Below are positions 1,272-20,177 of a DNA stretch of 64,000 bases, one piece after another. How positions within the stretch are numbered: position 1 is the first letter of the stretch; each line of letters starts with the position of its first letter. Location of the stretch: positions 4,894 through 68,893 of the forward strand of contig CALWEZ010000001.1 in the NCBI GenBank assembly GCA_944377455.1, in the 5' to 3' direction. The DNA comes from an uncultured Clostridia bacterium (GTDB lineage Bacteria > Bacillota > Clostridia > Christensenellales > UBA1242). The notes beneath the pieces were generated by a model. The model ran no database searches. It had not been told where the DNA came from and saw only the letters and a list, made by a program, of their open reading frames with translations. The translations under genes and the position numbers were made by a program.

Positions 1272-4200
1272 ATGAAAGTTAAAAGTTTGTTAATATCGCT
1301 ACTATTAATTTTTGGAGGGTCGATAGGAGCCTTTGCTCTTTCACTGCCTGCGCTTTCCACTCAGGCGGTCAGCGTGGACGCTAGCGTTTGGGACGGTACA
1401 TATGCAACAAGCGTCAATACGGACGATGTTGACATTTTAGGCTTTAACTCGGCAGGTAATGAGACATCTCTTTCATCGGCAACCACCATAAGAATTTACA
1501 CCGCAAAAGGTTTTTCGTATTTTGCAGGTCAAGTAAATAACGGCACAACCTATGCGAACAGAACTATCTACCTTGAGTGCGATATAGACCTAAACAATCA
1601 ATCTTGGACGCCGATTGGCGGAAGCACAACATATTTCATGGGAACTTTTGACGGAAATAACAACACAATCTATAATTTAAGAAATAATTCTTCGTATTCC
1701 ACCTTTGGACTATTTGCGAGAGTGGAAGGCGAGATTCAAGATGTAAACCTTGTTGGAGTTGACATTTCGTATTCTGGCACGCTCTCTTCTTCGCAATATG
1801 TGGGTGCGATTGCGGGCGAACTACATGGTGGCAGTGTGGTTGGTGTTAGTGTTAAGGGGAGCGTTAACTCGAGTGCCTATAGTTCACTTTCCTATGTCGG
1901 CGGTCTTGTCGGTTACGCGCATGACGCAGGAAACAGCGACAATGACACCTCTAGCCCTGCAATAATTGAAAATTCTGTGAATTACGCTTCAGTTTCAGGT
2001 GTTTCTAATGTTGGCGGACTTGTCGGCTATGCATATGGCGATGTTAGAATTGAGACATCTGCAAATCTTGGAGATGTTTCAAACAATAGAAACTCCTCCA
2101 CATCAAGCATAAACATCGGCGGACTTGTGGGAAGAGAAAACTCAACAACTGGCAAATACTTAAGAATAACAAACGCCTTTAATAACGGAGATATAACTCT
2201 TGTTGCATCCACTAACAATGTCGATGTTAGGGCAGGCGGACTGCTCGGTAGTTCTGACAGTGTTAGGTCTGGCTCGACGCTGGCAAACTACTTTAAATTT
2301 CAATACGTCTATAACGGCGGTGATTTTTCTGTCACGGGATATTCAAGTGCTTCAAATAGGTCGGTCTATATCGGCGGACTTGTCGGATTTGCTGACAGTC
2401 CAATCGATGTGTTTACGGATGATTATTTGATTAGTTACTCATTCAATGTTGGCAATCTTGTTTCAGTTGACAATTCCTCAAGTTTTTCAAATCTTGGCAG
2501 TAGATTTCATTTCAGAGAGATAATCGCAACAACGCTTTCGCAAAATGTGGCTTTGGGTGTCAGCCAAAACGATGTTTTCTATGACTATGACGCGCCATAT
2601 CAAGTTTTTTACACATCTTCTATCTACAACGACCTTACAAATTTAATCAGAGTGACTCATCTTGACGGAAGAGCGACATCGTATGAATTTTTGTCGACCG
2701 CGCCAGATAAGACAGACGGAGTCTATGGTGTTAATTTCGATTTTTATGACGGAACAGACGGCTATTGGCTTCTTAGCGAAACGGTGAACGAGGGTTTGCC
2801 ATATCTTTATACCGCATCAAACACCGAAGATGCCAATGAGGACTGGGACACGACCCTTGTTGGAGAATGGGAAGGCGACGGAACTCTTGCTTCTCCATAT
2901 CTAATCTACACTGCTGAAGATTTGGCGCTTGTTGCAGATAATTATAATGCTGGTGCTTACAGCGAAACAAGCGTGACGTATTTTTCTCTTCAAAACGACA
3001 TTGATTTGAGTTCAAGGGCGTGGGAGCCTATCGGCGTCAACAATTATTCCTTCAAAAATGCAGTGTTTGACGGAAATGGTCACACCATATCTGGCATAAA
3101 CTGCTCGCTTCAAGTGGACTACAACCAAAGCGTTGGTCTTTTCGGCACGATAGAAAATGCGGTTGTTAGAAATGTTATTATCGAAGATTTTAGGTTTGTC
3201 GGCAGTGCAATGACGTCTATCAATCGTGCAACGCTCGTTGGAAGCGCGGTGAATTCCTATATCATAAACTGCGTGGATAACACAGGCTATGTTTATGATG
3301 ACTTAACAGGCTCTGCTGTTCGCACAATCGCAACCGCCTCTTCTTCCTACCTTATCTATGGGCAAAACAACATAAGCGGTGGCTCTTACACTAACGGCAT
3401 GACAAATATTTCTTCTTCTACCTCTCGCGCTTTGAGAGTGGGCGTTGAAACTTTCCTAAACACTGAAGGTGGCTTGGTGTATGATGAGGTTTTGTCGACA
3501 GAAAATAGAGCAATCACACCGCACCTTGGTGACGGACGCTTTGTTATGGTGGATAATAGTGTTGTTTCTGTAACGCTTGATAGTTCCATCAATCTTTACG
3601 ACACAACATATATGTCATCTCTTCCAGTGGATACCATCGAGGCGTATGAAGATGATGACTACAACAACAGTTTCTACATCGTCAAAGAGGGCTACAAAAT
3701 TGTGGAAGATGGCTATACTTGTGGTGGCGCTTTATTATCAAATTTATCAGGCACAAATTCTTGGACAGATTTAATCAACTTAGGCATAACTGCCGTTTGG
3801 GAAAGTGCGGAAGATGTCGAGTTTAAAGTTTACTATAACTCCTATGAGAGATATTGGCACACGGTGGCAAGAACTGACGGAGCAGTGAACTACGCTGGTG
3901 TTGAGGGCGCAGACGGAACTGTTGATGCCACATACGACCATGAAAACGACAAATTTGTGACCATCAATATGCCATACAACACTTTCAACAGCATGGCAGG
4001 ACTGCAAGAAGAGTTGACGGAAGTGGTTGGTGGATTGGAAAGGGAGAACTTTGAGATTGCTGGTGTCTACGAAACCTTTGAGAATGGTATCTATGGCGGA
4101 ACAGACCTAATATCTTCTGAACAATCAAATGCAGGGTTTTTCTACAACACAAATGGCGAATATTTCTTAAAATGGCAAGGGACCGACAACAACGCCTACG

Positions 4201-7200: not shown

Positions 7201-10200
7201 TCAGCAAAAAACAGGGGCATCAAGTGAATGGCTGGGTTGTCTATAACAGCGACGAAACAGAGACGACTCCAATATTCATATCCTATTATAGATTAGATGA
7301 AAACTACTTTACATCTCAGTATGCCGACGAATCGGGTGAGGCAGATTATCGCGTGCATATCGAGAGAAATTACACTCCAAACACCTACTATATCAACTAT
7401 TCAAGTGGTGACGAAAGAGTGGTGGGAAGCGATATTTATGGCATTGCAACAGGCTCAACCACAAGCACGCTTGCTTTGGTAAATTCGGAAACGCAAATTG
7501 CCACAAACGGCTTTAGTATCACTGGCTATACTTTCACAAATTGGAACACAAATATTGACGGCACAGGAAGGAGTTTTGAGGCAGGAGAGGTGGTAGACGA
7601 AAACCTTTGCACTGGTGATGATGGCGACACCTCAATCACGCTATACGCTCAGTGGGAGGCAAAGAACTATAGCGTCGAGATTGTTTTTAACGGCGGAACT
7701 TATAGCGACGAAGAAAGTTTAGTGCTAAACAATATCACCTACAACACAACTCTCTCAGCACTTAGCGACATTGTGCCTACGCGAGCAGGCTTCACATTTG
7801 ATGGCTTCTACACCATGTCGCCAACTGGAATTAAATCTGATTTTTATCTAGTTGACGAAAATACCTATTTAAATAGTTCAGTCTATGGCTTTAATGACGT
7901 GGAGAATAATGTGGCACTGACAATCTATGCCACATGGCGTTACACGGGCGATGTGACCTTTACTATCGACGATAATTCAAGGACATATGCCTACACTGGC
8001 GAGAATATTTCAACACCTATTTCAAGTTATGTTCTAAACGGCACAAACTTAGAATTCAGTTATGATGACGAATTTACTATATCAAGCGCATACACTGATG
8101 TGGCTGTAAGTTATGAATTTTCAGGTGCCATCTTTGACGGAAACAACATCGTTTTAGGTAGCAACAACGTTGGAACATATTACGTATATATCAATTTGAC
8201 CTTGACGGACGAAAGCGAATTTTATCCAACTGGCGAGATTGCCACGCTTCAGGGAGAATTTGTCTTTATAATAGAGCAAGCAAATATCGACTATACATAT
8301 TCTTCTGATTATTCGCTTTATTATGAAAACATAAAGTATCTCGTATCCTTGATAGAAGCGGAAGAAGAGATAGAGAGAGTAAACGGCTATGGCAGTTTCA
8401 CAAATATGATGAACTCGCTTAAAGGCGACGGCGTCGTGGACGACTATGCGACCATAAACAACACCTATGAATATCTCTTTATGAAATATTTCAACATGAT
8501 AAACACAAGGGTAAACAGCGTCGAGAACTATGAAACCTTCATGAAATTTAGAAATTGGACTTATGACGATTATCTTTCCTACTACGAAAACGCCTTCTAT
8601 TTCTCAAATGGTGACGATGTTGGAGATGAGGAACTGTCGAACTTAACTGGCGTTAGAGCCACACGCGCAAGTGTGCTAGCAAGCGCTTTCCTATTGAGTT
8701 ATGATGTCAACAACATTATAAGGTCGGCGGTTCTATATGGAGATGACGCATCGGGAATATATAGTGCTTCGCAATTTGTTTTGACTTCACCAACTGCGGT
8801 GAATGTTGCAAGCGAAATTCAAATAGACAGCATTGAGGTTATCTCTTCCAACAACATGCGAACAAATTCATCCTATGAGGTAAGAGCGTATTTAAGTGCT
8901 TCGTCAAATGCGAGTCTAAATAATTATAATTTGCAATTTATAACCGAAAATGGAAACAACAGATATTATATCTCCCTTCCTAACGCATATATGCTTTTGC
9001 AAGTTTTAAAACTTGAGAATAATAGTTTGGTTCAATCAACTTTCTATAATATAAACGCAACTGAGATTCAAGTGGAGTATGCAGGAAGTAGTCAAGACAC
9101 CTATCTTCATGTGCTTGACCGATTGACCTACACGCAGTTAGAAGAAAACTCTAACCTATATATCAACCTACAACTTACCACATCCAATATCGGCAACAGC
9201 GACCACGACACTGTGTATAATTTCTACATACCAGAAAACCATTTCAATTTCTCAAGCTATCAAGTGCTTTCGGTTGTGAACGACCTTGCAACCAATGTGA
9301 CCAGCGATGTCAACTTGATTCTTTCTGAAGATTTTTCTTACACGATATATAACGTGAATGAGACAGCGCAAATAACGATAAATCCACGCCTTTTAACTAA
9401 GGTTGACGGCTTCACAGATGTGATAGATGTTGACGAACAATTCTATGAAAACTTATTCAGTGTGACCAGTTTCACATATAGTCTCGACGGCATAGACGAA
9501 ATAACCGTGGAAAATAGCCAAGGCTTAACAGACGGCAGATATTTCTCAGAGGACGGCGGAGTGCTTTTGTTTGAGATAACAAACAACAACTCAGGCGCTC
9601 CAGTCATCATAAGCACTGAGCCTTTGACCTCCATCGTCATTCAAGTGGCAACAAGATTAGGGCAATACATAAGACTGATTGATATTGGTCAGACGGAAAC
9701 CACAAGTTTTGAAGGCGACGGAATAAGGTCGACAGGCGAGTATGTTTTTGATTTAAGCGAAACATCCAACGAGATAGAATATATCGAAGGAGTGGTCACC
9801 GAGGTGGATTACCACGCCGCCTTCAGCGATTTAGTGAGAGTGGTGACAGATTACAACTTGCCTTCAAATAATAACCAAATGCTTTCCTATTTGCAACTTG
9901 CTGTGGACACAAGCGAAGACATCATCTTCCCATATGAAAGTTACCTATCATGTGAAACTCTTAACTATGTTTCAAGCGACGGCTCGGAAGCAGTTTACAC
10001 CACCATCTTCACAGGCGCGAACGGCACATATGTTGGCGTGACAGATAACGTCTTTGAACAGGTGAACCTCAAGGCTTACTGGGGAATAGGCGATGTCATG
10101 CCTGCCTCACTCGGTGTGACATATAGACAAAGCGTTGGCACGCTTGAAAGTGTCGCAAGTTATGATGTTGGCGTGTTCTCTTCTGCAAACAGCGAATATT

Positions 10201-13200
10201 TCACCTACAACTATGAGATGGTATATACTGGAGTGGATGGTGACTTAAACGAAGTTGTGGCGCAAAGCGACAATATCAATAGACTTATCTATTATCTCGA
10301 TAACGGCGGAACGCTTAATGATAATGGTCTCTATCAAATAAGAATCACAATCACAATGAAAGAGGAATATAGATATATCCTATCCAACCCTGAAGATTTT
10401 GAAATTGTAAATTCCGATGTTGTGTTTGAGATAGATTTACAACCAATTCACATCGTTGGCATAGAGTATGTTGGCGAAGACGAAATTGAGTATGACGCGC
10501 AAGACCACACAAACAGCTTTTCACTCAATGTTTCCTACCTTATGTATGATGCTTCAATAGATGGATATGACAGCGAAGATGTGCAATCGGTAAGTTATGT
10601 CTATAACCAAGAGGGCTTATTTGATATAACGATTAATAGAGATAGCAGTGTTGTCACATCGATGGTCAATGTCGGTGAATATTCGATAGATTTCACTATC
10701 GACGAAAGTTATTATCTCTTTGACGGCGAAGTCACAACAAACTTTATAGCAAACATCGTGCCTTGCACCATCGATTTAAAGGTTGAAGATATAAACCTTT
10801 CAAAAAAATTCAATATGACTGACCCAATTTTACAACACACCATCAGCATAAACGGAGAGACTTTGCAATTTAACCTTCTTAGAGACGGCGGTGAAGATAT
10901 TGGAAACTACAATCTATATCTAAACTCTAATAACGGCTTTGTATGTTCCAATCTCGCCACAAACTATCAAATTGTCTATGGCGATGTCGTTCTTTACGAC
11001 GGCACTTTGCAGAATTTAACAACCCAAGTTGGCTTATTCACAATCACAGCCTCTGACACCTTGAGACTATCATGGACAGGTGGCAACATAGTTGTCAACT
11101 ATAGCGCTGACGGCTACAAGTTGCAAATTGCTGACGGTCAAGTTGTTGCGTATGCTGGCGACGCAGAGACGGCGCGTAGAACCTTGACGGTTTACGATGT
11201 TGCAACAGGCGAATATGTCTCATCCAACCTATCACTTATTGAAGAGTTATTAAACTATGACAATCTAACGCTTATGCTCTATAATTCCTCAAGTTTAGAG
11301 ACAGTTTACGACAGCGCTATCTATGAAATTCGAGTGGTAGTCAAAGAAGATGCAGAGATTTCAAACTACTATAACAACATCATCTTTGATGAAGCGTATG
11401 TCTTTGAGATACTGCCAGTGCAGGTTGACATCTCTGACAGCACAAGATTTTCCTTTAACAAAGACTATGACGGCAACAACACTCTTCGCGTTGACTTAAA
11501 CGGCGATGTTGTCGGTGAGAACTACGAAGGTGTGTATATTCTTGCCACCTTTGCCACCTACCATGCAGGCGAGAATATAAGGGTAAGTTTAAGTTTGGGA
11601 GCAACTGAAGGCTACAATGCAAACAACTATTCGCTTTCATCTTCAACTGCACGCGGAACAATCTCAAAGCGTGACGCCATAATCAACGTTTCAGCACGCT
11701 ATGACGAAGGCGAAGATAGTTACACCTATGGCGAGTTAAGTCGAACAAATCTAGCCGAAAATCTCAACATCTCCGTGCTAAGTTTGGACGGGACGCAAGA
11801 TTTGACCGACATATTCTATCTGTCGACCTACACTTTGAACCTTGACTTAGAGAACGCAAACGCGAACAGACTTGGCTTCTATTATCAAGGCTCATATTCA
11901 GTTAGAATTGTAAGTTCTTCCTTTGCTGATTTCAATATTGAGACTATCAATGGTGACAATGTCACAATTTCACCATACACTTTCAATTTAAGTTTGCCAG
12001 AAAACTACATCACAATAACCACCGTGGATGTTGTTTCGACTTACTCTGACACTCAAACCTATGCTTTAACAGGCGACGTCATCACTCTGTCATACAGACC
12101 TGTTGGCTTAACGCAAGGCGAGTTAGGCGCGGAAGGGCAATATGACCTAGAACTCAACGGCTCAAATAGTTTTATCGAAGGCAGTATTATCGTCAACCTT
12201 TCGGCGATAGACTCCTTCCAAATCGTTGCCACAGAAGAAATTATCTTCTTAAGATTTAATGACGAAAAATTGCTTAACTTGGATTATAATGGCTACACCT
12301 ATAATATGAGTGTTGAAGGCAACAATTTTGTTATTAAAAACGCCAACAACTCTTCAGTCAACATACCTTTCACTTTGTATAGAAAAACTGGCGCAGGTGA
12401 CGAGCAGTTTGCAGGTGCTGTGATCTCTGTCATCATCTGCATAAATAACGACGCAAGGAGTTTTAGAGATGCAGGAAGCTACAGGCTAAATCTTCAAGTT
12501 GAAGCAGAAGGCGCAGTCAACTTTGCCTTCTATGATAACTACTTTATCAATGTTTCGCCTATCGAAATTAACACAACAAACTTAAATTTAACAAAGACCT
12601 ACGACGGCACAAATAGGCTGGAAAACATCGACTTTGCTGAACGCGTGGATGACGGCGTGGTGAGCGACGATGTTTCCATCACTGCAGTGTTTGCATCAAG
12701 TCAGGTGGGTGAAGGCATCGATGCGACGCTCTACCTTATCGGCACATCTGCTGGAAACTATCGCTTTGTGGATGACAACGACCAAGCCGTTGGAAATATC
12801 GTGAGAGCGAATGCAACAATCGCACTTGCGAGTGAGAGTTACACATATGGCTCCATCATGGCTGACTCCACTTTCCTATATGTTGTGACCTCAAATGAGA
12901 GAACTGTTTCAACAACCGAATACTCTGTTAGTTCGACCATTCAAAATGGCGAATATTCAAGTGGCGGATATTTGGTTGTTGGTGGCTACTCGCTCGCACT
13001 TTCCATAACGAGCAACAACTACAACATCTCTCCAACCTCGCTCACGTTCAGCGTAACGCCATTCAGTCTTAATTTCACATTCACAACCGACGGCGTGTAT
13101 AGAACAAGTTATGGCTCAGACGAAAGCCATGAAAACACGTTTGTGCGTGACTATTCCACAATTTTTGGCGACACCATCGATGTGACCTTCACAAGAGAAA

Positions 13201-16200
13201 ATGGCGCCGAAGTTGGATATTATGAAATACTATCAGCGAGCGTTGAAGATGACAACTATCAAGTGGCAAACGTAACCGATAACAGCCCAGGTGGCGCATA
13301 CAGAATCACCCCTTCAAATGAGAGATATTATCTTCTCATAAGCACTGCCGATAAGATTGCTGGTGACGACAACGCCTGCCTTAACATGACGCTTAACTAC
13401 GACGGAATTTCTTACTCCACCTTAGAGTTTGTTGTCGACGAAGAGAATAGAAACTACAGAATCATTCTTCAAGATGCCACAGGTGACAATCAAGTTACAT
13501 ACACTTTGAGCCTATATTCCTATGACCAAGAAGAAAACATCTACACAAAAACCACGAATTTCGACGAAACGCTCTCGGCTGACCTTAGGCTTGCCACAGG
13601 CGTAAGTGCAAGAAATGTGGGCGAATACTCTGTCTACGCCGAGAACATTGAAAGCACCAACTTTGATGTCATTTTTGGTCAAACTGGCACACTTTCTTCC
13701 TATGTTGTTAGAGTTTTGCCTAAAGAGCTCACTTACAAGGTGACAGGAGTGTCAAAGACCTTCGATAACACCTATGCAGTTTTAAATTATGCCGACGCAA
13801 GCGAAATCTTAGACGGCATTGTTGCAGGTGATGAGTTGTCGTTGACATTGACGATGTATAACGGCGAAAATGTTGCAAGATATGTCGGCGAAAATTACAC
13901 TGTGGTTGCAACATTAGGAAACGGCTCGAACTATACAATCTCAGGCACAATTTCAGGTGCAATCACAAAAGCACCAGTCGGAATTTATGTTGCAAGCGTA
14001 ACAATAACCTATGGACAAACACCTACTTTCGATTATTTAATAGATTACGGCGACCTTGATTTGACCTACTACGACAGGAGTCAAATCAGTGTGGATATAG
14101 CGATTTTAAATGGCGAATATTCTAGTTCTAATCATCTAATTGCTAACGAATATGCGCTCTCTGCCACACTCAATGCTAACGACTTTGAAATAGGCTATTA
14201 TCTAGACAATAATTTTGAACAAGAAGATGTGCTTTCAGCCACTTTGACGGTTAATCCAAGGGCGCTATCCATCGCGCAAAAGGATGACACCTTGCTTCAA
14301 AGTGTGTTCTCGAAACTTTATGACGGAACGGATGAGATAGCAATTAGAGACGAGAACAGCGAACTTCTCTTCAATCTAAACAATGTGCTTGAAGGCGACA
14401 TTGTTGATGTGGAGAGCGCTCGATTTGCACAAACCGCTCCAGGCAATGGTATTGCTGTTATCTTCACTCTCACTGGTGAGGATATGGCAAACTATACGCT
14501 GGCTAATTATACTAGCGGTGAAATTAGACCGATTGTTGTTGAAATTGCTTACGATTATCAAGCGTCCGAAGGTGAAACGATTGTGCCAAATGTTGAAGAA
14601 GATAGATTGCTTAATGGCGTGAACTATCCATTCTCGTCGACAAACTATCTAACAGCGAACGCATCTGACAGCACTCGAAATGCCTTTCCAACCATGTTGA
14701 CAGGCAAAAATGGTTACACCTTCAATGGCTGGACGCTCAACTTAACTGCAGAGGAGAACACGCCAGAGTGGACATACTTAAATGATGTACTTACAAGGCT
14801 CAGTCTTAACTACACAACTAGCGCTGGTGTATATCGAATTTCTGTTGGAAACAATAGCTCAACGATAGCACTTCTTGACGAACTCCTCTCAAATGAAGAA
14901 GATTACTTTAACTTGTTTGAAAGCGAAGGCTCGGCACGCGTCACCTTCACTGCTAACTGGGTGGGAAATTCTTACTATCTAACTATTCATATGCAAGACG
15001 CAAATGGCGAAGATTTGGGCGGAAATTACAGCGCCTATGCCACGATTGAAATCGACGGAAATGCGATGATTTCGTCAATCTATCAAACAAGCGTAAATCA
15101 TGGCGACAGTGTGGAAATAGCCGTCAATCTCAATGACTACATTAGGATTGTTGGTGCATACGATGTTGCAACAGGCAAAGAATTTAGTTTTGACAACGTG
15201 GAACGAGTGGGCAATGTTGTGACCTACACGATTAATTCGGTTACTGCTGAATATAACATCGCCTTTAGGTTTAGATACGACAACATCTCCATCGTTTTAG
15301 ACCTACAGGGCTACAACGGCGAAGTGACATTTGATGACGACAGATTTGTGCCATTGACTGAAAATAGGTATGTGTTCACAACCTCATGTCAAAATCTTGC
15401 ATCTTCCACCTTGTTAGACTTGCCAGAGCTCTTTAGGTCTGGCTACAATCTCACTGGCTATCTATTCAATGGCGAAACAACTGTAAACGCCGATGATTTT
15501 AGTGACACATTGATTTTAACTTGTGCTGTCTTAACCGACAATGGTTATGAACTTACATATTCGCCAATCTTCGACGAGCTGAATATTGAAGTGACGCTAG
15601 ACTATAACTATAATAGTATAACGGAAACGATATTTGTTCCATTTAATGGCACATTTAATAGCGCTGTTGGCTGGGAAGAGACTCCGACAAGAGAAGGATA
15701 TAACTTTGTGAACTGGACAGACGAAAATGGGGTCGTTGTCACAGGCGAGAGCGTGCTTACAGACCCAGACGGCGTCACACTCACAGCGAACTGGAGCATA
15801 ATGCAGAACTACATCACACTCTCTCTTGATGAGAACTTGATACTCGCAAGTTCTAGCGTTGATATAACCTACGACAGAGAAAATGGTGTGTATATCTTTG
15901 ACGAACTTGACTATGGCGAAACTCTCACTTTCACTTTGCAGGTGGTAGACGGCTATCAAGTTGGTGAAATATCATATACTCAAGACGATGTTATCTTCGA
16001 AGATGTCGAATTTGAAAGGACAACGGATGGTGCGAATGTCACTTTCACAATGCCAGCACCTCCATATGTCAAGATGAGCGCTGTAAGTGCGGTAAGACAA
16101 AATAACGTTGTGGTAGACGGCGAACATTTCTCATTTACTGCAAATATCGATGGAACGCCGATTGAGATAGTGGACAATTCCTTTAGTGTTGACACAGATG

Positions 16201-19200
16201 TCATATTCACCTTAGATGTCACAATCGAAAGTGGCTATATCTTTGTTGGTGTGGAAACCAACAACGACGAAATCGGCATAGAGCAATCTATGAACGGCTC
16301 ACACCTAACTCTCATGGTCAGCGGTGTTAGAAGGGATACCGAGATTTCCATTCTTACCACCGAGCGTGAAAATGCCGTGACATTTAACTTTGATATTTCG
16401 GAGGCTATTAGCAGGCTTATCACAAATGACCAAACGAACACTGACAACATTGCCTATGTTCGCACTGGCGAAACCTTGACCGCTTACATCGGCTTAAATA
16501 GTGGCTATTTGATAAACGGAATCATCTTTGCCGATGCCGACGGAGAATCACAGCAAGTTGCATATAGTTTGGTGCAAGAAGAAGGCAATGCTTATAATGG
16601 TTACTATGAGTTCTCCATTGAAAATATCACGGCGGATGCCACGGTGAGCGTTGAGATAGGATATGTAACCTATGAAGTGACAACTGGCGTTTTGGTCTAT
16701 GACGAAAACGGCGAGATTGTTGAAGATGAGGATGTTTTAAACTTGTTCTCAACACTTGTCAATGGCGAGAGCTCAGTTATAGTGGAATATAGCTCTATGG
16801 TGACACTATCTTACACTTCTTCAACAACAGAATACAATTTTGCAGGCTGGTCACTTGACGGCTCAACCATCGTAAGTTCGGATAGTCCACTTGATATAAC
16901 AGTGACATCGAACACAACAGCCTATGCCATCTTTTCAAAAACACAATTTAGGGTGAATCTAAACTCTTATAGTTACTATGTTCTAAACGAGGAATATGGC
17001 GACAGCGAGTTAGAAGAAGAGGTTTATGATTTAATCTATGCACCATTCTACGATGAAGGTGTGGAAATCTATCAATCATACATCTACTATGGGTCCAGCA
17101 GAACGATAACTCTTCGCGTTCCAGACGGCTACACCTTCCTAGGCTATGGATATATCCTAAACGCTGAGTATAGTCAAGCAGAACTTGTGAGAGGCGACTT
17201 TGAATATGCCTATAGAAATCAAAGTGCAGAAAGAGAGATTGAGATAACACTTGACACGCTCTATATGCTCTCTCTTGGCTTTGGTGCAGACGGAAATAAC
17301 TTTGTGCCATTCTTCGTGGCATTGGCGCCAAACTCCATAGATTTCAACATAAGTTCTCACCTTGACTTTGACGGACTTATTGAAGACGACAATTTGGTTG
17401 CTGACATATCGCTTATCGGCTATGAAGATGGTGTAGCTGTCAACGTCAACGAATATGGCTATGTTACTGGCACGCTAAATCACTATAAAGATAACATAAC
17501 AGGCAACACTCAAAATTTCACAATAACCACAAACACAAATGGTGAGGTATATTTGAAGATAGGCACCTTGCGTTATGGCTACAATCTTTCAAGGGTTGTC
17601 TCTCAAAATGAAGCGCTTGTGTCGATACAATATGTTGGCGACATTGTGGAAGGCGACAAAACCTTTGCAATCTATAGGCTATATAACATCATAGGAAGCG
17701 TCAACGAACTTGATATAGATGTCTATTTCGAACCACAAAAGAGCATTATTGACATCAATTTTGTCAACGAAAATGGCGCGATTGTCTCTGGCGGAAGTCT
17801 CTTCCTTGACGTGACTGACGAGATGAGCGGAAAGGTTTGGGGAAATGGCTCCAATTTCTCAAGTCTCCAGGTTGTCGGCTTCACTGACACACACTTCTCG
17901 GTTGTTGCCTATGTTAGACTTGGTTTCATGATTGACATAAATGATGTCGAGCTCATATATGACAACGCAAATCTCACTATAAGCGACATAGTGGCATACC
18001 AACTAGACTTTGCTGAAAACAACTATAACTATGTCATCTACTTTAATGTCAGTGGCGTGCAGAACGGCACCACAATCTCCATTAGTTTACAGCCTCAAAC
18101 CTACCGCGTTGTTTTAAATGATATTTCGCTTGACAATCCAGTTGTTGCAGTGATTGACAATGTTAAATTCCATGAGACTCTTGATTTAAGCAGTGCGAAC
18201 AGCGCAAATATAACTTCAAGTTTGGGCTACGAAAACGGCATGCTCAACATCGTTCAATCTAAAACTGACTATGATTTTGGCGGATATTTCACATATGCAG
18301 GCGGACGCGGAATTCAATACATCAACTCGACTGGTCAAGCGCTGAGGGAATTCTTAGAGACTGGATATATCTTAAATGAAAGCACAGGAAGATACGAACT
18401 TAGTGACAACGCCTACATCGACACCGACGGCGTTATGACGATAAATCTCTATCTATACTGGTCATATCTAAAGACGCAAATCACCTTCTCAATCACGCCA
18501 AACATTCGTGCAAACATAACTGCACAAGATTTGGTGGAGGGCGAAAATTCGGCAAACTCATGGTTCAATGAGGATATGCCACTCTATATTGAGGTGGCGT
18601 TCAACACAAACATCACCTTGACCGCACCAGAGATAGAGGGCTATAGGTTCTATAAGTTTGTCATCAAGCAAAGAGATGCAAACAACAATCAACTGGCAGA
18701 TGTTGTAAGTTTCAGTAATGACCTTCCATGGTCGACCAATGTGCGCGATAGAATTGTGGAGATGACGATTGAGGTCTACTATTTTGCAAGAGTCAATGTT
18801 TCGCTTTCTGGCGGAGAGATGGAATATCAAATCACTCAAAATTGCGATGATATGTATGCTCAAGAACTTGTAAACGAAGGCTATGTCGACACCACCAAGG
18901 AATTCACTTTAACTGCACTTGAGTCCTCTGGCTATGATTTCAATTACTGGTATAAGGTTTCCACGCAACAAAGATACAGCACTCCATCATTCACCGACCA
19001 GATAAGCACCTATTCAAACTACATCTTGGCAGTGCAAGGCAAACGTGTGACATTGAGTTTCAGCGAGTATAACGCAACATCTGGATATATCTCGACCATG
19101 CTTGTTAGAAACATCTCCAACATCCAAACAAGCGTTTCGCTTGGACATTTAAACAACAACACCTTTGTCAAAGATGTCTATGAATATGATGTCAGAGTTG

Positions 19201-20177
19201 GAGACACCGTCACATTTATGGTGAGAGCTGACTATGGCTTCGGCGTAAGTTGGAATTTAGATGGAATTGAACTAGATCGCATTGCAAATCAATATCTCTA
19301 TTTCGTAATGGATATAACGGGTGATATGGCAGAGACAACCGTTTCGGTAATTCCTGAATTTATCGGCGAAAGCATGGCAATCTATGTCAATAAGTCCTTT
19401 GCTGAGAAGGATGTCATTGAAAACGCCACCGATGGTAACGATGCGAACTATGCTGGCTATGTTTCCTATGGTGGCAGGGCGATGGATGTCATCTTGCGTG
19501 ATTTAGGCGACGATTTAACCTTGAATATCGTTGTCAATGCTCGCTATAACATCACAAACCTTGAGTTTATCAACTACTATGGTCAGACCATCAATGCTAT
19601 GGAGTATTACGACAGCGAAAGTGGCACGCTGTATCTCACACGTGAAGAGATAGACCAAAATTATCTCGCTGGCACAATCGGACTTAACCTTGAATTTGAA
19701 AGACTCTACTTCGAGTTTGCTGAGACTGACGAGCAAGGCACAGGCACTTCGAACGACCCATATCTCATCTACACCATTGAAGATTTAACATATTACATGA
19801 ACAAAATCAACAGCGGTGCAATCAACGAAGATGGGCGCTTTTATGAACTTGCAAGTTATCGCGTTATGGCAGACCTTGTGCTAAACGAAAAATTCTGGAC
19901 GCCAATCGGCACAACCGAACATCCATTTAACGGCACTTTCAATTTCAACGGACATATAATTTCAAGCATCTATCTAGCCGAATACTACAATCCAACAAGT
20001 TACGGCGGACTATTTGGTGTGATAGGTTATAATGCAAGAATTTATCGAAACGAAGAAAGTCGTTGGTATATCTTCATCATCATAATTATCATAATAATTC
20101 TTCTAATTCTATTGATTATTCTTCTCATCTACAACAAGAAAAAGAAGGAAAAGCGAGAGGAATTGAACACTAAATAG
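1272..20177 (+). CDS. Giant (6301 aa) secreted, C-terminally membrane-anchored mosaic surface/adhesin-like protein
   Basis: Uninterrupted 18.9-kb ORF with RBS AGAGG. N-terminal Sec-type signal peptide (MKVKSLLISLLLIFGGSIGAFALSLPALSTQA). Contains GLUG-type modules, Listeria-Bacteroides (Flg_new-like) repeats, MBG/YDG-type repeats and a C-terminal poly-Ile TM followed by a KKKK stop-transfer. Confidence 0.9.
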   Translation: MKVKSLLISLLLIFGGSIGAFALSLPALSTQAVSVDASVWDGTYATSVNTDDVDILGFNSAGNETSLSSATTIRIYTAKGFSYFAGQVNNGTTYANRTIYLECDIDLNNQSWTPIGGSTTYFMGTFDGNNNTIYNLRNNSSYSTFGLFARVEGEIQDVNLVGVDISYSGTLSSSQYVGAIAGELHGGSVVGVSVKGSVNSSAYSSLSYVGGLVGYAHDAGNSDNDTSSPAIIENSVNYASVSGVSNVGGLVGYAYGDVRIETSANLGDVSNNRNSSTSSINIGGLVGRENSTTGKYLRITNAFNNGDITLVASTNNVDVRAGGLLGSSDSVRSGSTLANYFKFQYVYNGGDFSVTGYSSASNRSVYIGGLVGFADSPIDVFTDDYLISYSFNVGNLVSVDNSSSFSNLGSRFHFREIIATTLSQNVALGVSQNDVFYDYDAPYQVFYTSSIYNDLTNLIRVTHLDGRATSYEFLSTAPDKTDGVYGVNFDFYDGTDGYWLLSETVNEGLPYLYTASNTEDANEDWDTTLVGEWEGDGTLASPYLIYTAEDLALVADNYNAGAYSETSVTYFSLQNDIDLSSRAWEPIGVNNYSFKNAVFDGNGHTISGINCSLQVDYNQSVGLFGTIENAVVRNVIIEDFRFVGSAMTSINRATLVGSAVNSYIINCVDNTGYVYDDLTGSAVRTIATASSSYLIYGQNNISGGSYTNGMTNISSSTSRALRVGVETFLNTEGGLVYDEVLSTENRAITPHLGDGRFVMVDNSVVSVTLDSSINLYDTTYMSSLPVDTIEAYEDDDYNNSFYIVKEGYKIVEDGYTCGGALLSNLSGTNSWTDLINLGITAVWESAEDVEFKVYYNSYERYWHTVARTDGAVNYAGVEGADGTVDATYDHENDKFVTINMPYNTFNSMAGLQEELTEVVGGLERENFEIAGVYETFENGIYGGTDLISSEQSNAGFFYNTNGEYFLKWQGTDNNAYVITINFADTAFSNVGGYADRFDWNEAIDTITINYYSTGNNGLLSVVESQTFDASKVIDGQFRYNYSTDAVDEYFEYIEIQVELKFGFTYDMATYSNYFSGPSNIAGNDDYATYVETYGSAYVISPTGITDWNVQNRQEVASYRFGQAVGDVELDLKIARSSNSFTLNLGEGVYYALALPSEISNSGFFEIFTGEGDDGYVTLQEYNEYFFSNIGNTGFVFGLNMFDNYMLSTARTFDMESTTNYINFNNDTNFEYLLVRLYFPENTQGSQYEYYLYEFGEIMNDNVETLTQTLYLVEPVESATTRQTTGLLTYNGYTFRVLDRIASIERESDAVPNENGSLDYQVNFYTNQEFGLIFSTENSDNYMVEYAGQRDSTFEVLMPVENIQNDNLQKIYYDFSRAKENGDNFYSVSVFLGASSDAEGIIEIAQQRITAKVSIQFVDENGNILEGTEDMPLPTIYLSLNGMGVPDQDVGRWTRYTEGSQITISPLSSKSMSLRIVNNEYYQWTYRQDNQESTAVRFSEFSGQANGAYEDDGTAGTLDSQLYLNITRDGSLFDAEGHPYDYEELNQGSHFYNYFAVNEPVDSSEAILGVTGLIYESERTAFDFLMLYNESEVASSGRLQYLPNYDFVLTFVLKNVDYSVNIETKYRQTTDGELYDDNTNKSEVWTEETSGAVVDLGADSSFGVRTYSAEVSTRSARANSTSGYTFAGFQIVTDNDDAVVSEYISHDTEAKFESMISFLEDYSDYLEFDSGKDSYTVDIQAIYLSNTINYEASGSGDLTNITDGRTIIENYNGTDAIRYLSQGISESRGLSYGTYYYGNSAMGNIDDLGAGDFTFEMNEYYSNRYTFTGVALMDETNYLLAGGNYDESLYLAKFDATTYPEQVTISNSGLNTISADGDLVKNYLKDNIGSLSGQTIYIVPIVEQKTLLVSVTSGASTDEIVYDIDGNETTNNEVQLVFYYNTATNVEFDKEYLKTKENEYESYYLVSTQDSVILNEYFSKKQGHQVNGWVVYNSDETETTPIFISYYRLDENYFTSQYADESGEADYRVHIERNYTPNTYYINYSSGDERVVGSDIYGIATGSTTSTLALVNSETQIATNGFSITGYTFTNWNTNIDGTGRSFEAGEVVDENLCTGDDGDTSITLYAQWEAKNYSVEIVFNGGTYSDEESLVLNNITYNTTLSALSDIVPTRAGFTFDGFYTMSPTGIKSDFYLVDENTYLNSSVYGFNDVENNVALTIYATWRYTGDVTFTIDDNSRTYAYTGENISTPISSYVLNGTNLEFSYDDEFTISSAYTDVAVSYEFSGAIFDGNNIVLGSNNVGTYYVYINLTLTDESEFYPTGEIATLQGEFVFIIEQANIDYTYSSDYSLYYENIKYLVSLIEAEEEIERVNGYGSFTNMMNSLKGDGVVDDYATINNTYEYLFMKYFNMINTRVNSVENYETFMKFRNWTYDDYLSYYENAFYFSNGDDVGDEELSNLTGVRATRASVLASAFLLSYDVNNIIRSAVLYGDDASGIYSASQFVLTSPTAVNVASEIQIDSIEVISSNNMRTNSSYEVRAYLSASSNASLNNYNLQFITENGNNRYYISLPNAYMLLQVLKLENNSLVQSTFYNINATEIQVEYAGSSQDTYLHVLDRLTYTQLEENSNLYINLQLTTSNIGNSDHDTVYNFYIPENHFNFSSYQVLSVVNDLATNVTSDVNLILSEDFSYTIYNVNETAQITINPRLLTKVDGFTDVIDVDEQFYENLFSVTSFTYSLDGIDEITVENSQGLTDGRYFSEDGGVLLFEITNNNSGAPVIISTEPLTSIVIQVATRLGQYIRLIDIGQTETTSFEGDGIRSTGEYVFDLSETSNEIEYIEGVVTEVDYHAAFSDLVRVVTDYNLPSNNNQMLSYLQLAVDTSEDIIFPYESYLSCETLNYVSSDGSEAVYTTIFTGANGTYVGVTDNVFEQVNLKAYWGIGDVMPASLGVTYRQSVGTLESVASYDVGVFSSANSEYFTYNYEMVYTGVDGDLNEVVAQSDNINRLIYYLDNGGTLNDNGLYQIRITITMKEEYRYILSNPEDFEIVNSDVVFEIDLQPIHIVGIEYVGEDEIEYDAQDHTNSFSLNVSYLMYDASIDGYDSEDVQSVSYVYNQEGLFDITINRDSSVVTSMVNVGEYSIDFTIDESYYLFDGEVTTNFIANIVPCTIDLKVEDINLSKKFNMTDPILQHTISINGETLQFNLLRDGGEDIGNYNLYLNSNNGFVCSNLATNYQIVYGDVVLYDGTLQNLTTQVGLFTITASDTLRLSWTGGNIVVNYSADGYKLQIADGQVVAYAGDAETARRTLTVYDVATGEYVSSNLSLIEELLNYDNLTLMLYNSSSLETVYDSAIYEIRVVVKEDAEISNYYNNIIFDEAYVFEILPVQVDISDSTRFSFNKDYDGNNTLRVDLNGDVVGENYEGVYILATFATYHAGENIRVSLSLGATEGYNANNYSLSSSTARGTISKRDAIINVSARYDEGEDSYTYGELSRTNLAENLNISVLSLDGTQDLTDIFYLSTYTLNLDLENANANRLGFYYQGSYSVRIVSSSFADFNIETINGDNVTISPYTFNLSLPENYITITTVDVVSTYSDTQTYALTGDVITLSYRPVGLTQGELGAEGQYDLELNGSNSFIEGSIIVNLSAIDSFQIVATEEIIFLRFNDEKLLNLDYNGYTYNMSVEGNNFVIKNANNSSVNIPFTLYRKTGAGDEQFAGAVISVIICINNDARSFRDAGSYRLNLQVEAEGAVNFAFYDNYFINVSPIEINTTNLNLTKTYDGTNRLENIDFAERVDDGVVSDDVSITAVFASSQVGEGIDATLYLIGTSAGNYRFVDDNDQAVGNIVRANATIALASESYTYGSIMADSTFLYVVTSNERTVSTTEYSVSSTIQNGEYSSGGYLVVGGYSLALSITSNNYNISPTSLTFSVTPFSLNFTFTTDGVYRTSYGSDESHENTFVRDYSTIFGDTIDVTFTRENGAEVGYYEILSASVEDDNYQVANVTDNSPGGAYRITPSNERYYLLISTADKIAGDDNACLNMTLNYDGISYSTLEFVVDEENRNYRIILQDATGDNQVTYTLSLYSYDQEENIYTKTTNFDETLSADLRLATGVSARNVGEYSVYAENIESTNFDVIFGQTGTLSSYVVRVLPKELTYKVTGVSKTFDNTYAVLNYADASEILDGIVAGDELSLTLTMYNGENVARYVGENYTVVATLGNGSNYTISGTISGAITKAPVGIYVASVTITYGQTPTFDYLIDYGDLDLTYYDRSQISVDIAILNGEYSSSNHLIANEYALSATLNANDFEIGYYLDNNFEQEDVLSATLTVNPRALSIAQKDDTLLQSVFSKLYDGTDEIAIRDENSELLFNLNNVLEGDIVDVESARFAQTAPGNGIAVIFTLTGEDMANYTLANYTSGEIRPIVVEIAYDYQASEGETIVPNVEEDRLLNGVNYPFSSTNYLTANASDSTRNAFPTMLTGKNGYTFNGWTLNLTAEENTPEWTYLNDVLTRLSLNYTTSAGVYRISVGNNSSTIALLDELLSNEEDYFNLFESEGSARVTFTANWVGNSYYLTIHMQDANGEDLGGNYSAYATIEIDGNAMISSIYQTSVNHGDSVEIAVNLNDYIRIVGAYDVATGKEFSFDNVERVGNVVTYTINSVTAEYNIAFRFRYDNISIVLDLQGYNGEVTFDDDRFVPLTENRYVFTTSCQNLASSTLLDLPELFRSGYNLTGYLFNGETTVNADDFSDTLILTCAVLTDNGYELTYSPIFDELNIEVTLDYNYNSITETIFVPFNGTFNSAVGWEETPTREGYNFVNWTDENGVVVTGESVLTDPDGVTLTANWSIMQNYITLSLDENLILASSSVDITYDRENGVYIFDELDYGETLTFTLQVVDGYQVGEISYTQDDVIFEDVEFERTTDGANVTFTMPAPPYVKMSAVSAVRQNNVVVDGEHFSFTANIDGTPIEIVDNSFSVDTDVIFTLDVTIESGYIFVGVETNNDEIGIEQSMNGSHLTLMVSGVRRDTEISILTTERENAVTFNFDISEAISRLITNDQTNTDNIAYVRTGETLTAYIGLNSGYLINGIIFADADGESQQVAYSLVQEEGNAYNGYYEFSIENITADATVSVEIGYVTYEVTTGVLVYDENGEIVEDEDVLNLFSTLVNGESSVIVEYSSMVTLSYTSSTTEYNFAGWSLDGSTIVSSDSPLDITVTSNTTAYAIFSKTQFRVNLNSYSYYVLNEEYGDSELEEEVYDLIYAPFYDEGVEIYQSYIYYGSSRTITLRVPDGYTFLGYGYILNAEYSQAELVRGDFEYAYRNQSAEREIEITLDTLYMLSLGFGADGNNFVPFFVALAPNSIDFNISSHLDFDGLIEDDNLVADISLIGYEDGVAVNVNEYGYVTGTLNHYKDNITGNTQNFTITTNTNGEVYLKIGTLRYGYNLSRVVSQNEALVSIQYVGDIVEGDKTFAIYRLYNIIGSVNELDIDVYFEPQKSIIDINFVNENGAIVSGGSLFLDVTDEMSGKVWGNGSNFSSLQVVGFTDTHFSVVAYVRLGFMIDINDVELIYDNANLTISDIVAYQLDFAENNYNYVIYFNVSGVQNGTTISISLQPQTYRVVLNDISLDNPVVAVIDNVKFHETLDLSSANSANITSSLGYENGMLNIVQSKTDYDFGGYFTYAGGRGIQYINSTGQALREFLETGYILNESTGRYELSDNAYIDTDGVMTINLYLYWSYLKTQITFSITPNIRANITAQDLVEGENSANSWFNEDMPLYIEVAFNTNITLTAPEIEGYRFYKFVIKQRDANNNQLADVVSFSNDLPWSTNVRDRIVEMTIEVYYFARVNVSLSGGEMEYQITQNCDDMYAQELVNEGYVDTTKEFTLTALESSGYDFNYWYKVSTQQRYSTPSFTDQISTYSNYILAVQGKRVTLSFSEYNATSGYISTMLVRNISNIQTSVSLGHLNNNTFVKDVYEYDVRVGDTVTFMVRADYGFGVSWNLDGIELDRIANQYLYFVMDITGDMAETTVSVIPEFIGESMAIYVNKSFAEKDVIENATDGNDANYAGYVSYGGRAMDVILRDLGDDLTLNIVVNARYNITNLEFINYYGQTINAMEYYDSESGTLYLTREEIDQNYLAGTIGLNLEFERLYFEFAETDEQGTGTSNDPYLIYTIEDLTYYMNKINSGAINEDGRFYELASYRVMADLVLNEKFWTPIGTTEHPFNGTFNFNGHIISSIYLAEYYNPTSYGGLFGVIGYNARIYRNEESRWYIFIIIIIIIILLILLIILLIYNKKKKEKREELNTK
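1380..2400 (+). other. N-terminal GLUG-motif module of the giant protein
   Basis: WTPIGG..F.GTFDGNNNTIYNL core, followed by reiterated (Y/N)(V/I)GGLVG(Y/F/R) motifs at about nt 1898, 2010, 2114, 2232 and 2371. Related cores recur at about 2870-3260 and 19735-20040 (DPYLIYT.EDL...W.PIG...F.G.F.GNGH.IS). Confidence 0.6.
7378..7940 (+). other. Listeria-Bacteroides repeat (Flg_new-like) units inside the giant protein
   Basis: YINYSSG...GYTFTNWNTNIDGTGRSFEAGE...TLYAQWEAKNYSVEIVFNGGT...RAGFTFDGFYT...LTIYATW. This is the classic G(Y/F)(T/N)F.GW...F......(L/I)YA.W periodicity. Further single units lie near 14690, 15690 and 18270. Confidence 0.65.
10400..14550 (+). other. Block of MBG/YDG-type repeats inside the giant protein
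   Basis: Recurrent pattern of about 90-100 aa: (I/L).P..(I/L)......K.YDG(T/N)......GD.(V/L)......F......G......L.G..A.NY......G.I. Examples: NKDYDGNNTL...NANNYSL, LTKTYDGTNRL...SAGNYRF, SKLYDGTDEI...MANYTLANYTSGEI. Confidence 0.55.
20064..20132 (+). other. C-terminal transmembrane tail anchor of the giant protein
   Basis: WYIFIIIIIIIILLILLIILLIY followed by NKKKKEKREELNTK and the stop. No LPXTG-like sortase signal precedes it. Confidence 0.8.

What the first reader, a model, noticed from the sequence alone, without database searches (positions are those of the whole stretch)
1272..20177. 6301-aa mosaic surface protein occupying 30% of the window
This single intact 18.9-kb ORF combines several elements. 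It has a Sec signal peptide and three GLUG-type modules (two N-terminal, one just before the anchor). It has Listeria-Bacteroides repeats and a block of about 4 kb of MBG/YDG-type repeats. Several kilobases (about 3.3-7.3 kb, 8-10.4 kb and 15.8-19.7 kb) show no motif I can recognise. That architecture suggests a very long fibrillar adhesin of a host-associated bacterium. The unassigned stretches may hold new fold families, and there are no frameshifts or stops despite the length.
Basis: partly seen in the sequence, partly recalled or inferred. Interest (0 to 1): 0.6.

Follow-up and report, generated by a model that had tools for sequence, protein, structure and literature searches.

The report
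Giant membrane-anchored fibrillar surface protein
This is a real, intact gene for a 6,301-residue cell-surface fibre protein of an uncultured Clostridia bacterium; it is built mostly from known adhesin-type domains, but about 1,900 residues match nothing known outside a tiny family, so it is a large, otherwise ordinary member of a known class.

Summary
The ORF 1272..20177 (+) is real: 6,301 codons, no stops, no DNA repeats. It is found full length (6,301/6,310 aa) in independent assemblies. Positional orthologues in at least 7 lineages are collinear from signal peptide to anchor, at 39-85% pairwise identity and 6,193-6,332 aa. Misassembly is effectively excluded.

- There are three homologous GLUG-type head modules, two N-terminal and one next to the anchor.
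- There are Flg_new (Listeria-Bacteroides) repeats.
- There is a ~1,450-aa MBG/YDG array.
- The anchor is a C-terminal TM helix with a basic tail, not LPXTG.

The three "unassigned" stretches fare differently:
- The third (15.8-19.7 kb) resolves into about 17 divergent Flg_new/Flg_new_2 repeats.
- The first two (~aa 721-2030 and 2346-2975) stay orphan. They have no Pfam, NCBIfam or PDB sequence match. An exhaustive search of 1.84 billion cluster representatives found only three matches, all from this family.
- AlphaFold2 failed on the first stretch (pLDDT 31), so "new folds" cannot be judged.

Best reading: a fixed-length, Sec-exported, membrane-anchored fibrillar adhesin-like protein. A stalk of beta-rich domains presents N-terminal beta-helix (GLUG) modules. 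The adhesion function and host association are inferred, not shown. It is a new member of a known kind, of modest interest.

The parts
1124..1151 (+). Promoter-like site (TTGCTA-16-TAAAAT with TG) in the 540-nt AT-rich spacer after the gltX terminator (709-728)
   Evidence: This is a consensus match only, and the count is not above the shuffled expectation.
1260..1266 (+). Shine-Dalgarno-like GAAGAGG, 5 nt before the ATG
   Evidence: Sequence read.
1272..20177 (+). Complete ORF, 6,301 aa plus stop
   Evidence: Full-length orthologues.
1272..1364 (+). Signal peptide, aa 1-31 (MKVK, hydrophobic core, TQA|VS)
   Evidence: Sequence; hydropathy; conserved in all orthologues. No signal-peptide predictor was run.
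1389..2561 (+). GLUG module 1 (aa ~40-430): head motif plus about 5 GLUG turns (GGLVGY...)
   Evidence: Phmmer hits down to E=4e-62 to proteins annotated PF07581/PF05342. The family consensus hits Pfam Glug at E=2.9e-24 and the IgA1 protease structures 6XJB/6XJA at E=2e-7. The window sequence on its own is sub-threshold (Glug 14.7 bits).
2829..3431 (+). GLUG module 2 (aa ~520-720)
   Evidence: Pectate_lyase_5 E=0.006. Consensus hits Glug at 6.9e-15 and Peptidase_M26_N at 28.1 bits. It is among the most conserved parts of the protein.
3432..7361 (+). Orphan region U1 (aa 721-2030). It is non-repetitive and beta-rich, with Flg_new-like remnants at aa ~1651-1710 and ~1927-2013.
   Evidence: No Pfam family in any of 5 orthologues. 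No PDB profile hit. Only 3 hits among 1.84e9 cluster representatives, all from this family. AF2 gave pLDDT 31.
7368..7907 (+). Two canonical Flg_new (Listeria-Bacteroides) repeats, aa 2033-2212
8019..8306 (+). Possible isolated MBG-like unit, aa ~2250-2345, assigned by motif only
   Evidence: The 'NVGTYYVYI...IIEQANI' motif. The leave-one-out HMM does not confirm it.
8307..10196 (+). Orphan region U2 (aa 2346-2975), whose first ~130 aa look helix-prone by eye (no predictor run)
   Evidence: No consistent Pfam hit in 5 orthologues. No PDB hit. No database homologue.
10197..14561 (+). MBG/YDG array, about 15-16 units of ~90 aa (aa 2976-4430)
   Evidence: YDG 62.1 bits, 4 stretches. MBG_2 is sub-threshold. 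Internal similarity. Leave-one-out recognises 10/16 units at i-E<0.01.
14562..19349 (+). Array of about 17 divergent Flg_new/Flg_new_2 (InlB B-repeat-type) units, aa 4431-6026.
   Evidence: GY.F motif every 85-100 aa. Leave-one-out recognises 12/16 units. TIGR02543 40.7 bits, Flg_new_2 32.4 bits, Flg_new 28.7 bits. A consensus of the 10 Pfam-silent units scores 25.4 bits on Flg_new_2, above the 23.6 cut-off. The top five PDB hits are all InlB B-repeat.
19569..20057 (+). GLUG head module 3 (aa ~6100-6262), directly before the membrane anchor
   Evidence: Highly conserved.
20064..20135 (+). Transmembrane helix, aa 6265-6288 (WYIFIIIIIIIILLILLIILLIY)
   Evidence: Hydropathy up to 4.19. Conserved in P0124 and P0125.
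20136..20174 (+). Basic cytoplasmic tail NKKKKEKREELNTK; only the N/V position differs in the orthologue that is 39% identical overall

Best explanation
The ORF encodes a giant, fixed-length, fibrillar surface protein that looks like an adhesin.

- Export (inferred from the N-terminal signal peptide): the protein leaves the cell through Sec.
- Anchoring (read from the sequence): a single C-terminal TM helix acts as a stop-transfer anchor, and a conserved poly-lysine tail stays in the cytoplasm. There is no sortase motif.
- Ectodomain (domain assignments shown): about 6,230 very acidic, beta-rich residues form a chain of roughly 35-40 small domains. These are about 16 MBG/YDG units, about 19 Flg_new-type units, two non-repetitive orphan blocks and three GLUG modules.
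- Function (inferred): this chain works as a stalk, plausibly 100 nm or longer if extended. It holds the two N-terminal GLUG modules away from the cell, together with the orphan block behind them. The GLUG modules are homologous to the N-terminal region of pneumococcal IgA1 protease and to Pfam's 'pectate-lyase-like adhesive domain'. The distal end would bind an unknown ligand, possibly a glycan or a protein.
- Evolution (shown): every domain is positionally orthologous across lineages. There are no near-identical repeats, so length is conserved rather than variable.
For: - Real gene under constraint: full-length collinear orthologues at 39-69% identity to the window, 47 cluster members mostly 6,193-6,332 aa, and four independent assemblies 98-99% identical at the 3' end.
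- The locus is syntenic (gltX upstream). The giant protein diverges faster than that neighbour, 67% against 86% identity, as surface proteins usually do.
- Signal peptide, TM helix and tail.
- Stalk families: YDG, Flg_new, Flg_new_2 and TIGR02543 above their cut-offs, with arrays extended by leave-one-out HMMs and consensus tests. These families are classed as stalk domains of fibrillar adhesins in PMC9210967.
- Head: homologues carry PF07581/PF05342. The family consensus hits Glug (2.9e-24), Peptidase_M26_N, Pectate_lyase_5 and IgA1 protease 6XJA/6XJB.
- GLUG modules 2 and 3 and the anchor are the most conserved parts.
- No HExxH motif, so it is not an M26 protease.
Against: - No ligand, binding assay, expression or localisation data exist.
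- GLUG modules also occur in enzymes such as IgA1 protease, so a GLUG head is not proof of adhesion.
- About 1,900 aa (U1, U2) have unknown fold and could carry a different activity.
- The third GLUG module sits next to the membrane, which the tip-adhesin picture does not explain.
- The AF2 model of one Flg_new-type unit (pLDDT 78) did not match the InlB B-repeat structure in Foldseek.
- The window's own GLUG and MBG_2 scores are below Pfam cut-offs.
Confidence: 0.6

Rival explanations
1. It is a structural envelope or spacing protein. It would form a surface fibre, coat or cell-cell cohesion element with no specific ligand-binding tip, for example keeping cells at a set distance or organising an outer layer.
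For: - Length is strictly conserved (6,193-6,332 aa) and every domain is positionally orthologous, which suggests a ruler-like constraint.
- A GLUG module sits at both ends.
- The protein is extremely acidic: 879 D+E against 276 K+R.
Against: - The domain families are those described in adhesin stalks.
- GLUG modules 2 and 3 are more conserved than the stalk, as expected of functional end modules.
- No SLH or other cell-wall-binding domain was found.
Confidence: 0.2
2. It is a surface-displayed enzyme. One of the orphan blocks (U1 or U2) would hide a divergent hydrolase (glycan- or protein-degrading), with the GLUG modules acting as substrate-positioning modules as in IgA1 protease.
For: - The family consensus of the GLUG module matches the N-terminal region of IgA1 protease structures.
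- PMC9210967 notes possible catalytic roles for Peptidase_M26_N-like clusters.
- U1 and U2 are non-repetitive, unlike stalk arrays.
Against: - There is no HExxH or similar metalloprotease motif in 6,301 aa.
- No Pfam, NCBIfam or PDB catalytic-domain signal appears in any of 5 orthologues.
- U1 and U2 are no more conserved than the stalk.
Confidence: 0.12
3. It is an assembly artefact (chimeric or collapsed contig) or a decaying pseudogene.
For: Only the a priori suspicion that attaches to an 18.9-kb ORF in a metagenome-derived sequence.
Against: - There are no DNA repeats to collapse.
- Genes of the same length were called in independent ENA and Logan assemblies, which are 98.2-99.3% identical at the 3' end.
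- At least 7 lineages have collinear orthologues and none shows a stop.
- Amino-acid conservation is uniform along the whole length.
Confidence: 0.01

Closest known systems
Fibrillar adhesins of Gram-positive bacteria as defined by Monzon et al. (PMC8286594, PMC9210967): stalk domains + adhesive domain + anchor
   Same: It has a signal peptide, a long array of Flg_new, MBG and YDG stalk-type domains, a distinct N-terminal non-stalk region and a C-terminal anchor.
   Different: - The anchor is a TM helix with a basic tail, not LPXTG, SLH or choline-binding.
- No experimentally validated adhesive domain is present.
- There are about 1,900 aa of orphan sequence.
- A GLUG module also sits at the membrane-proximal end. 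None of the 120 GLUG homologues examined has one within 120 aa of its C-terminus.
Streptococcus pneumoniae IgA1 protease / M26 zinc metalloproteases (PDB 6XJA, 6XJB, 7JGJ; Pfam Peptidase_M26_N, Glug)
   Same: The consensus of the family built around the window's head modules aligns to residues ~187-367 of the IgA1 protease chains (E=2e-7). It also aligns to the C-terminal part of Peptidase_M26_N and to Glug.
   Different: There is no M26 catalytic domain and no HExxH motif. The similarity is seen only through the family consensus; the window sequence itself found no PDB relative.
Listeria InlB B-repeat (PDB 2Y5P; Pfam Flg_new / Flg_new_2; TIGR02543)
   Same: Several units score above the curated cut-offs. 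The consensus of the units hits Flg_new or Flg_new_2, and all five best PDB hits are InlB.
   Different: - There are about 19 units instead of one, and they are extremely divergent (7-19% identity between units).
- The AF2 model of one unit is an all-beta 9-strand domain with no significant Foldseek match to 2Y5P.
Periscope proteins / repeat-variable adhesins (PMC9704523)
   Same: It is a long, rod-like surface protein built of serial domains.
   Different: There are no near-identical DNA repeats, and length is almost invariant among lineages. Length variation by recombination is therefore not expected.
Other giant GLUG-motif proteins of Clostridia, Fibrobacterota and Bacteroidota (e.g. P0006 Wukongibacter 2,860 aa; P0026 Clostridium 5,038 aa)
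   Same: They share homologous GLUG head modules (E down to 4e-62), great length and a surface-type domain mix.
   Different: Homology is confined to the GLUG modules (aa 1-750 and 6100-6260). Nothing else in the protein is shared.

Membership tests
Fibrillar adhesin (Monzon et al. definition) | Array of recognised stalk domains | tested here: met
   YDG 62 bits, Flg_new 28.7 bits, Flg_new_2 32.4 bits, TIGR02543 40.7 bits. All three families are listed as stalk domains in PMC9210967.
Fibrillar adhesin (Monzon et al. definition) | A known adhesive (ligand-binding) domain | tested here: inconclusive
   Only Pectate_lyase_5 ('putative pectate lyase-like adhesive domain') was found. It is below the 24.3-bit cut-off: E=0.006 on the window sequence and 1.4e-3 on the consensus.
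Fibrillar adhesin (Monzon et al. definition) | Cell-surface anchor (LPXTG or another wall anchor) | tested here: not met
   No LPxT[GAN], SPKTG or NPxTG motif anywhere in the protein. Instead there is a C-terminal TM helix and a basic tail.
Fibrillar adhesin (Monzon et al. definition) | Demonstrated adhesion or surface exposure | not testable with these tools
   This needs proteomics or binding assays.
GLUG-motif modules (PF07581) / Peptidase_M26_N (PF05342) | Repeated GLUG motif scoring above the Pfam cut-off | tested here: inconclusive
   The window sequence scores 14.7 bits against a cut-off of 20.5. Homology is nevertheless strong: phmmer E=4e-62 to PF07581/PF05342 proteins, and the family consensus scores 84 bits on Glug and 28.1 bits on Peptidase_M26_N.
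M26 IgA1-specific metallopeptidase | Zinc-binding HExxH catalytic domain | tested here: not met
   No HExxH or HxxEH in 6,301 aa, and no peptidase Pfam hit.
Flg_new / Listeria-Bacteroides repeat (InlB B-repeat type) | Sequence match above the curated cut-off | tested here: met
   for individual units. For the 10 Pfam-silent units of aa 4668-6026, their consensus scores 25.4 bits against the 23.6 cut-off on Flg_new_2.
Flg_new / Listeria-Bacteroides repeat (InlB B-repeat type) | Fold matching the solved InlB B-repeat structure (2Y5P) | tested here: inconclusive
MBG / YDG stalk repeats | Sequence match above the cut-off and tandem organisation | tested here: met
   YDG 62.1 bits in 4 stretches. 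About 15-16 tandem units; leave-one-out recognises 10/16. MBG_2 alone is sub-threshold.
Periscope proteins | Near-identical tandem DNA repeats giving length variation | tested here: not met
   No tandem repeats and no direct repeats >=30 nt. Orthologue lengths are 6,193-6,332 aa.

The most novel reading that the evidence does not exclude
The two orphan blocks (aa ~721-2030 and ~2346-2975, about 1,900 residues) are conserved only in this small Clostridia family. They may contain at least one domain with a fold or ligand-binding/enzymatic activity not yet described, making them the real functional payload, carried between GLUG heads and stalk. The invariant cytoplasmic tail (YNKKKKEKREEL) and the membrane-proximal GLUG module hint at an anchoring or assembly mechanism not described for fibrillar adhesins.
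Probability: 0.25. Interest if true: 0.5.

Novelty: new member of a known kind. Interest (0 to 1): 0.3.

Why it matters
Giant surface proteins decide what uncultured anaerobes stick to. This one shows a conserved, fixed-length design in which about 30% of the sequence has no detectable relative outside a handful of MAG lineages. If the orphan blocks prove to be new binding or catalytic modules, they would extend the domain catalogue used to find adhesins. If they do not, the protein is simply one more long fibrillar adhesin-like protein. The case also shows that Pfam-silent stretches of such proteins can often be resolved into known repeat families by consensus and leave-one-out profile tests.

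Tried and rejected
- The search for homologous proteins, three searches. aa 1-3100 hit only the GLUG modules. aa 801-3100 gave 3 weak hits from proteins annotated with Flg_new. A profile of aa 4840-6039 gave nothing. This tool never returned the family's own members, although they are in the collection.
- AF2 on aa 801-2000 with a 3-sequence alignment gave pLDDT 31, so the model was unusable and was not fold-searched.
- Self-BLAST, phmmer and local hhalign could not relate most repeats to one another. Motif-anchored family HMMs were needed.
- PDB sequence searches with the window segments themselves found nothing, as did ortholog profiles of U1 and U2.
- Provenance: no paper mentions the sample or contig accessions, and cluster look-ups of neighbouring housekeeping proteins gave no organism names.
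- Considered and rejected: M26 protease (no HExxH), sortase substrate (no LPXTG), periscope-type variable repeats (no DNA repeats), polymorphic toxin (the C-terminus is an anchor, not a toxin domain), misassembly.
Full report
**1. The observation**

The window holds one ORF at 1272..20177 on the + strand: ATG start, 6,301 codons, no internal stop. A GAAGAGG ribosome-binding-like site lies 5 nt upstream of the ATG. The ORF follows a 540-nt AT-rich spacer that begins with a terminator-like hairpin after the 3' end of gltX. G+C is 39-43% along the ORF, against 34-40% in most of the flanking windows.

The neighbours are ordinary chromosomal genes: the gltX 3' end, uppP, a P-type ATPase, holB, a PSP1-domain gene, lysS, comEC, holA, metG, hisS and gyrA. 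This is therefore a chromosomal locus, not a mobile element.

The protein is very acidic (879 D+E against 276 K+R) and rich in S, N, T, Y and V. It has only two hydrophobic segments. One is the N-terminal signal-peptide-like segment (aa 3-28, followed by TQA|VS). The other is a C-terminal helix, aa 6265-6288, followed by NKKKKEKREELNTK. No LPXTG-type motif and no HExxH motif occurs anywhere.

**2. Is it an assembly artefact? No.**

- There is no tandem repeat and no direct DNA repeat of 30 nt or more inside the ORF, so there is nothing to collapse.
- The exact UppP protein encoded just downstream occurs on 9 contigs. Two of the four shown, from different projects (ENA ERZ16268194 and Logan SRR30170031), carry upstream genes called at 6,301 and 6,310 aa. 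The other two (BRZ_DA and ONAT22-1) are cut by contig ends.
- These four assemblies are 98.2-99.3% identical to the window over the last 2.9 kb of the gene plus downstream DNA. They are independent strain variants.
- A scan of one genome per species found four MAGs labelled 'uncultured Clostridia bacterium'. Their genes are collinear with the window protein over 4,251-5,335 residues at 54-66% identity and run on to the end of the fetched DNA.
- The exhaustive representative search found P0124 (6,305 aa, 68% identical end to end) and P0125 (6,194 aa, 39% identical end to end). Both have the same signal peptide, TM helix and tail.
- Their 90% clusters hold 18 and 29 members, almost all 6,193-6,332 aa.
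- Seven lineages differ pairwise by 15-61%.
- Conservation is even along the length.
- In L001-L003 the gene sits after gltX, as in the window. GltX is 86% identical where the giant protein is 67% identical, the usual picture for a fast-evolving surface protein.

**3. Domain map (aa coordinates)**

| aa | Assignment |
|---|---|
| 1-31 | signal peptide |
| ~40-430 | GLUG module 1 |
| ~520-720 | GLUG module 2 |
| 721-2030 | orphan U1 |
| 2033-2212 | two canonical Flg_new repeats |
| ~2250-2345 | possible MBG-like unit (motif only) |
| 2346-2975 | orphan U2 |
| 2976-4430 | about 15-16 MBG/YDG units |
| 4431-6026 | about 17 Flg_new/Flg_new_2-type units |
| ~6100-6262 | GLUG head module 3 |
| 6265-6288 | TM helix |
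| 6289-6301 | cytoplasmic tail |

*GLUG modules.* The three head modules are homologous to one another (self-BLAST E=2e-12 to 3e-7; ortholog profiles). The window sequence alone scores below Pfam's Glug cut-off (14.7 bits) and gives Pectate_lyase_5 at E=0.006. However, phmmer finds 203 proteins (E down to 4e-62), most of which are annotated PF07581 (Glug) and/or PF05342 (Peptidase_M26_N). Those hits cover only aa 1-750 and 6100-6300. A jackhmmer consensus seeded on the window's modules hits:
- Glug at 2.9e-24;
- Peptidase_M26_N at 28.1 bits (cut-off 27.7);
- Pectate_lyase_5 at 1.4e-3;
- the pneumococcal IgA1 protease structures 6XJB, 7JGJ and 6XJA at E=2e-7, chain residues ~187-367.

From my own knowledge, not tested here, that part of IgA1 protease is a beta-helix.

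*MBG/YDG.* Pfam YDG scores 62.1 bits in 4 stretches, while MBG_2 is sub-threshold. By eye, the 'G.Y.I ... NY.I ... I.P' unit recurs about every 90 aa from ~2976 to 4430. A family HMM built from the 16 putative units in 7 orthologues recognises 10 of 16 in leave-one-out tests at i-E<0.01.

*The third 'unassigned' stretch (aa 4843-6143).* A GY.F motif recurs every 85-100 aa. An HMM of 16 units x 7 orthologues recognises 12 of 16 units when each is left out in turn, always in the same register. These include the units Pfam detects. The supporting consensus tests are:
- The consensus of all 16 units hits Flg_new at 33 bits.
- Its five best PDB matches are all the InlB B-repeat, the best being 2Y5P at E=0.019.
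- A consensus made only from the ten units on which Pfam is silent hits Flg_new_2 at 25.4 bits, above the 23.6 cut-off.

This stretch therefore resolves into an already described repeat family.

*The first two 'unassigned' stretches.* U1 and U2 remain unassigned.
- Pfam is silent, or inconsistent, on all five orthologues.
- NCBIfam has no family on this half of the protein.
- PDB profile searches give nothing.
- The word-indexed search of 5.8 billion proteins gives 3 weak hits, from proteins annotated with Flg_new.
- The exhaustive HMMER search of 1.84 billion representatives with aa 801-2000 gives only three hits, all members of this family.
- A metagenome scan adds two more loci, at 59% and 32% identity.
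- No internal repeats are detectable in U1 or U2, apart from Flg_new-like remnants at ~1651-1710 (seen in 6 of 7 orthologues) and ~1927-2013.
- AF2 on aa 801-2000 with the three admissible sequences gave pLDDT 31, so no statement about fold can be made.
- U1 and U2 are conserved about as well as the stalk: three-way invariance is 0.28 and 0.35 against a mean of 0.34. GLUG modules 2 and 3 (0.48, 0.47) and the TM helix plus tail (0.72) are the most constrained parts.

**4. Mechanism**

*Shown.* The protein has a signal-peptide-like N-terminus, a single C-terminal TM helix with a basic tail, serial stalk-type domains, GLUG modules at both ends, strict collinearity and nearly constant length across lineages.

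*Inferred.* It is exported through Sec and retained in the membrane by the stop-transfer helix, with the tail obeying the positive-inside rule. The ectodomain forms an extended fibre of about 35-40 small beta domains. It presents the N-terminal GLUG modules, and perhaps U1, to an unknown ligand.

This matches the published concept of fibrillar adhesins. In PMC9210967, Flg_new, MBG and YDG are stalk domains, and Peptidase_M26_N-like modules are described as resembling pectate-lyase adhesive domains, with a possible catalytic role noted. I put 0.6 on the adhesin-like reading. The remainder is split as follows:
- a structural or spacer fibre, 0.2;
- a hidden surface enzyme, 0.12;
- an artefact, 0.01.

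**5. Comparison with the known, and novelty**

The protein fails two features that define the classic Gram-positive fibrillar adhesin: a wall anchor motif and a validated adhesive domain. It is not an M26 protease (no HExxH). It is not a periscope protein (no identical repeats, fixed length).

Among the 120 GLUG homologues examined, 59 have a hydrophobic C-terminus, but none has a GLUG head within 120 residues of the C-terminus. The membrane-proximal GLUG module is therefore unusual.

Proteins far larger than this are known in bacteria, up to 85,804 aa (bioRxiv 10.1101/2023.11.21.568195), so size alone is not remarkable.

Overall it is a new member of a known kind. About 70% of it is explained by described families. 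About 30% is family-restricted orphan sequence of undetermined fold.

**6. Verdict**

The architecture and the adhesin-like reading are plausible. The 'new folds' idea is refuted for one stretch and remains open for two. Host association is untested.
- Interest: 0.3.

Noticed in passing
window 42370-48285 (+), with 41378-42346 (+) just upstream: A 1,971-aa ORF with an N-terminal hydrophobic segment and no Pfam family (only a sub-threshold tRNA-synthetase B5 hit). It is preceded by a 322-aa ORF with an N-terminal TM segment and no Pfam hit. Neither is similar to the giant protein. This is a second large orphan envelope-type gene pair in the same window.
   Followed up: partly
window 35504-38317 (+): A 937-aa ORF with no Pfam family at E<=0.001 and no obvious signal peptide.
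   Followed up: no
window 20136-20174 (aa 6289-6301) and the same position in P0124/P0125: The cytoplasmic tail YNKKKKEKREEL(N/V)TK is identical, apart from the N/V position, in an orthologue that is only 39% identical overall. The TM helix plus tail is the most conserved segment of the protein. The reason is unknown.
   Followed up: partly
window 20178-20221: Only 44 nt, with no terminator-like hairpin, separate the giant ORF's stop from uppP (undecaprenyl-diphosphatase). The adjacency is kept in four independent assemblies. Co-transcription of a wall-precursor recycling gene with the surface protein is possible.
   Followed up: no
L004 1-7025: In the most divergent of the four MAG orthologue loci, the upstream gene is not gltX. 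Instead there is another very long ORF (at least 1,823 aa, running off the contig start) plus a 483-aa ORF, neither related to the window's proteins. Synteny upstream is therefore not universal.
   Followed up: partly
tool behaviour: The word-indexed protein search never returned this family, even with a profile made from its members. Yet the exhaustive representative search, the cluster look-up and the contig index all show full-length members in the same collection. Negative results from that tool for this protein are therefore not evidence of absence.
   Followed up: yes
window aa ~2350-2500 (nt ~8320-8770): The start of orphan block U2 is strongly conserved and looks helix-prone by eye (SLYYENIKYLVSL.E.E ... 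YE.LFMKY.NM.N ... RNWTY ... TRA.VL..FLLSYDV). It sits inside an otherwise apparently beta-rich protein (no secondary-structure predictor was run on it), making it a candidate functional insert.
   Followed up: no
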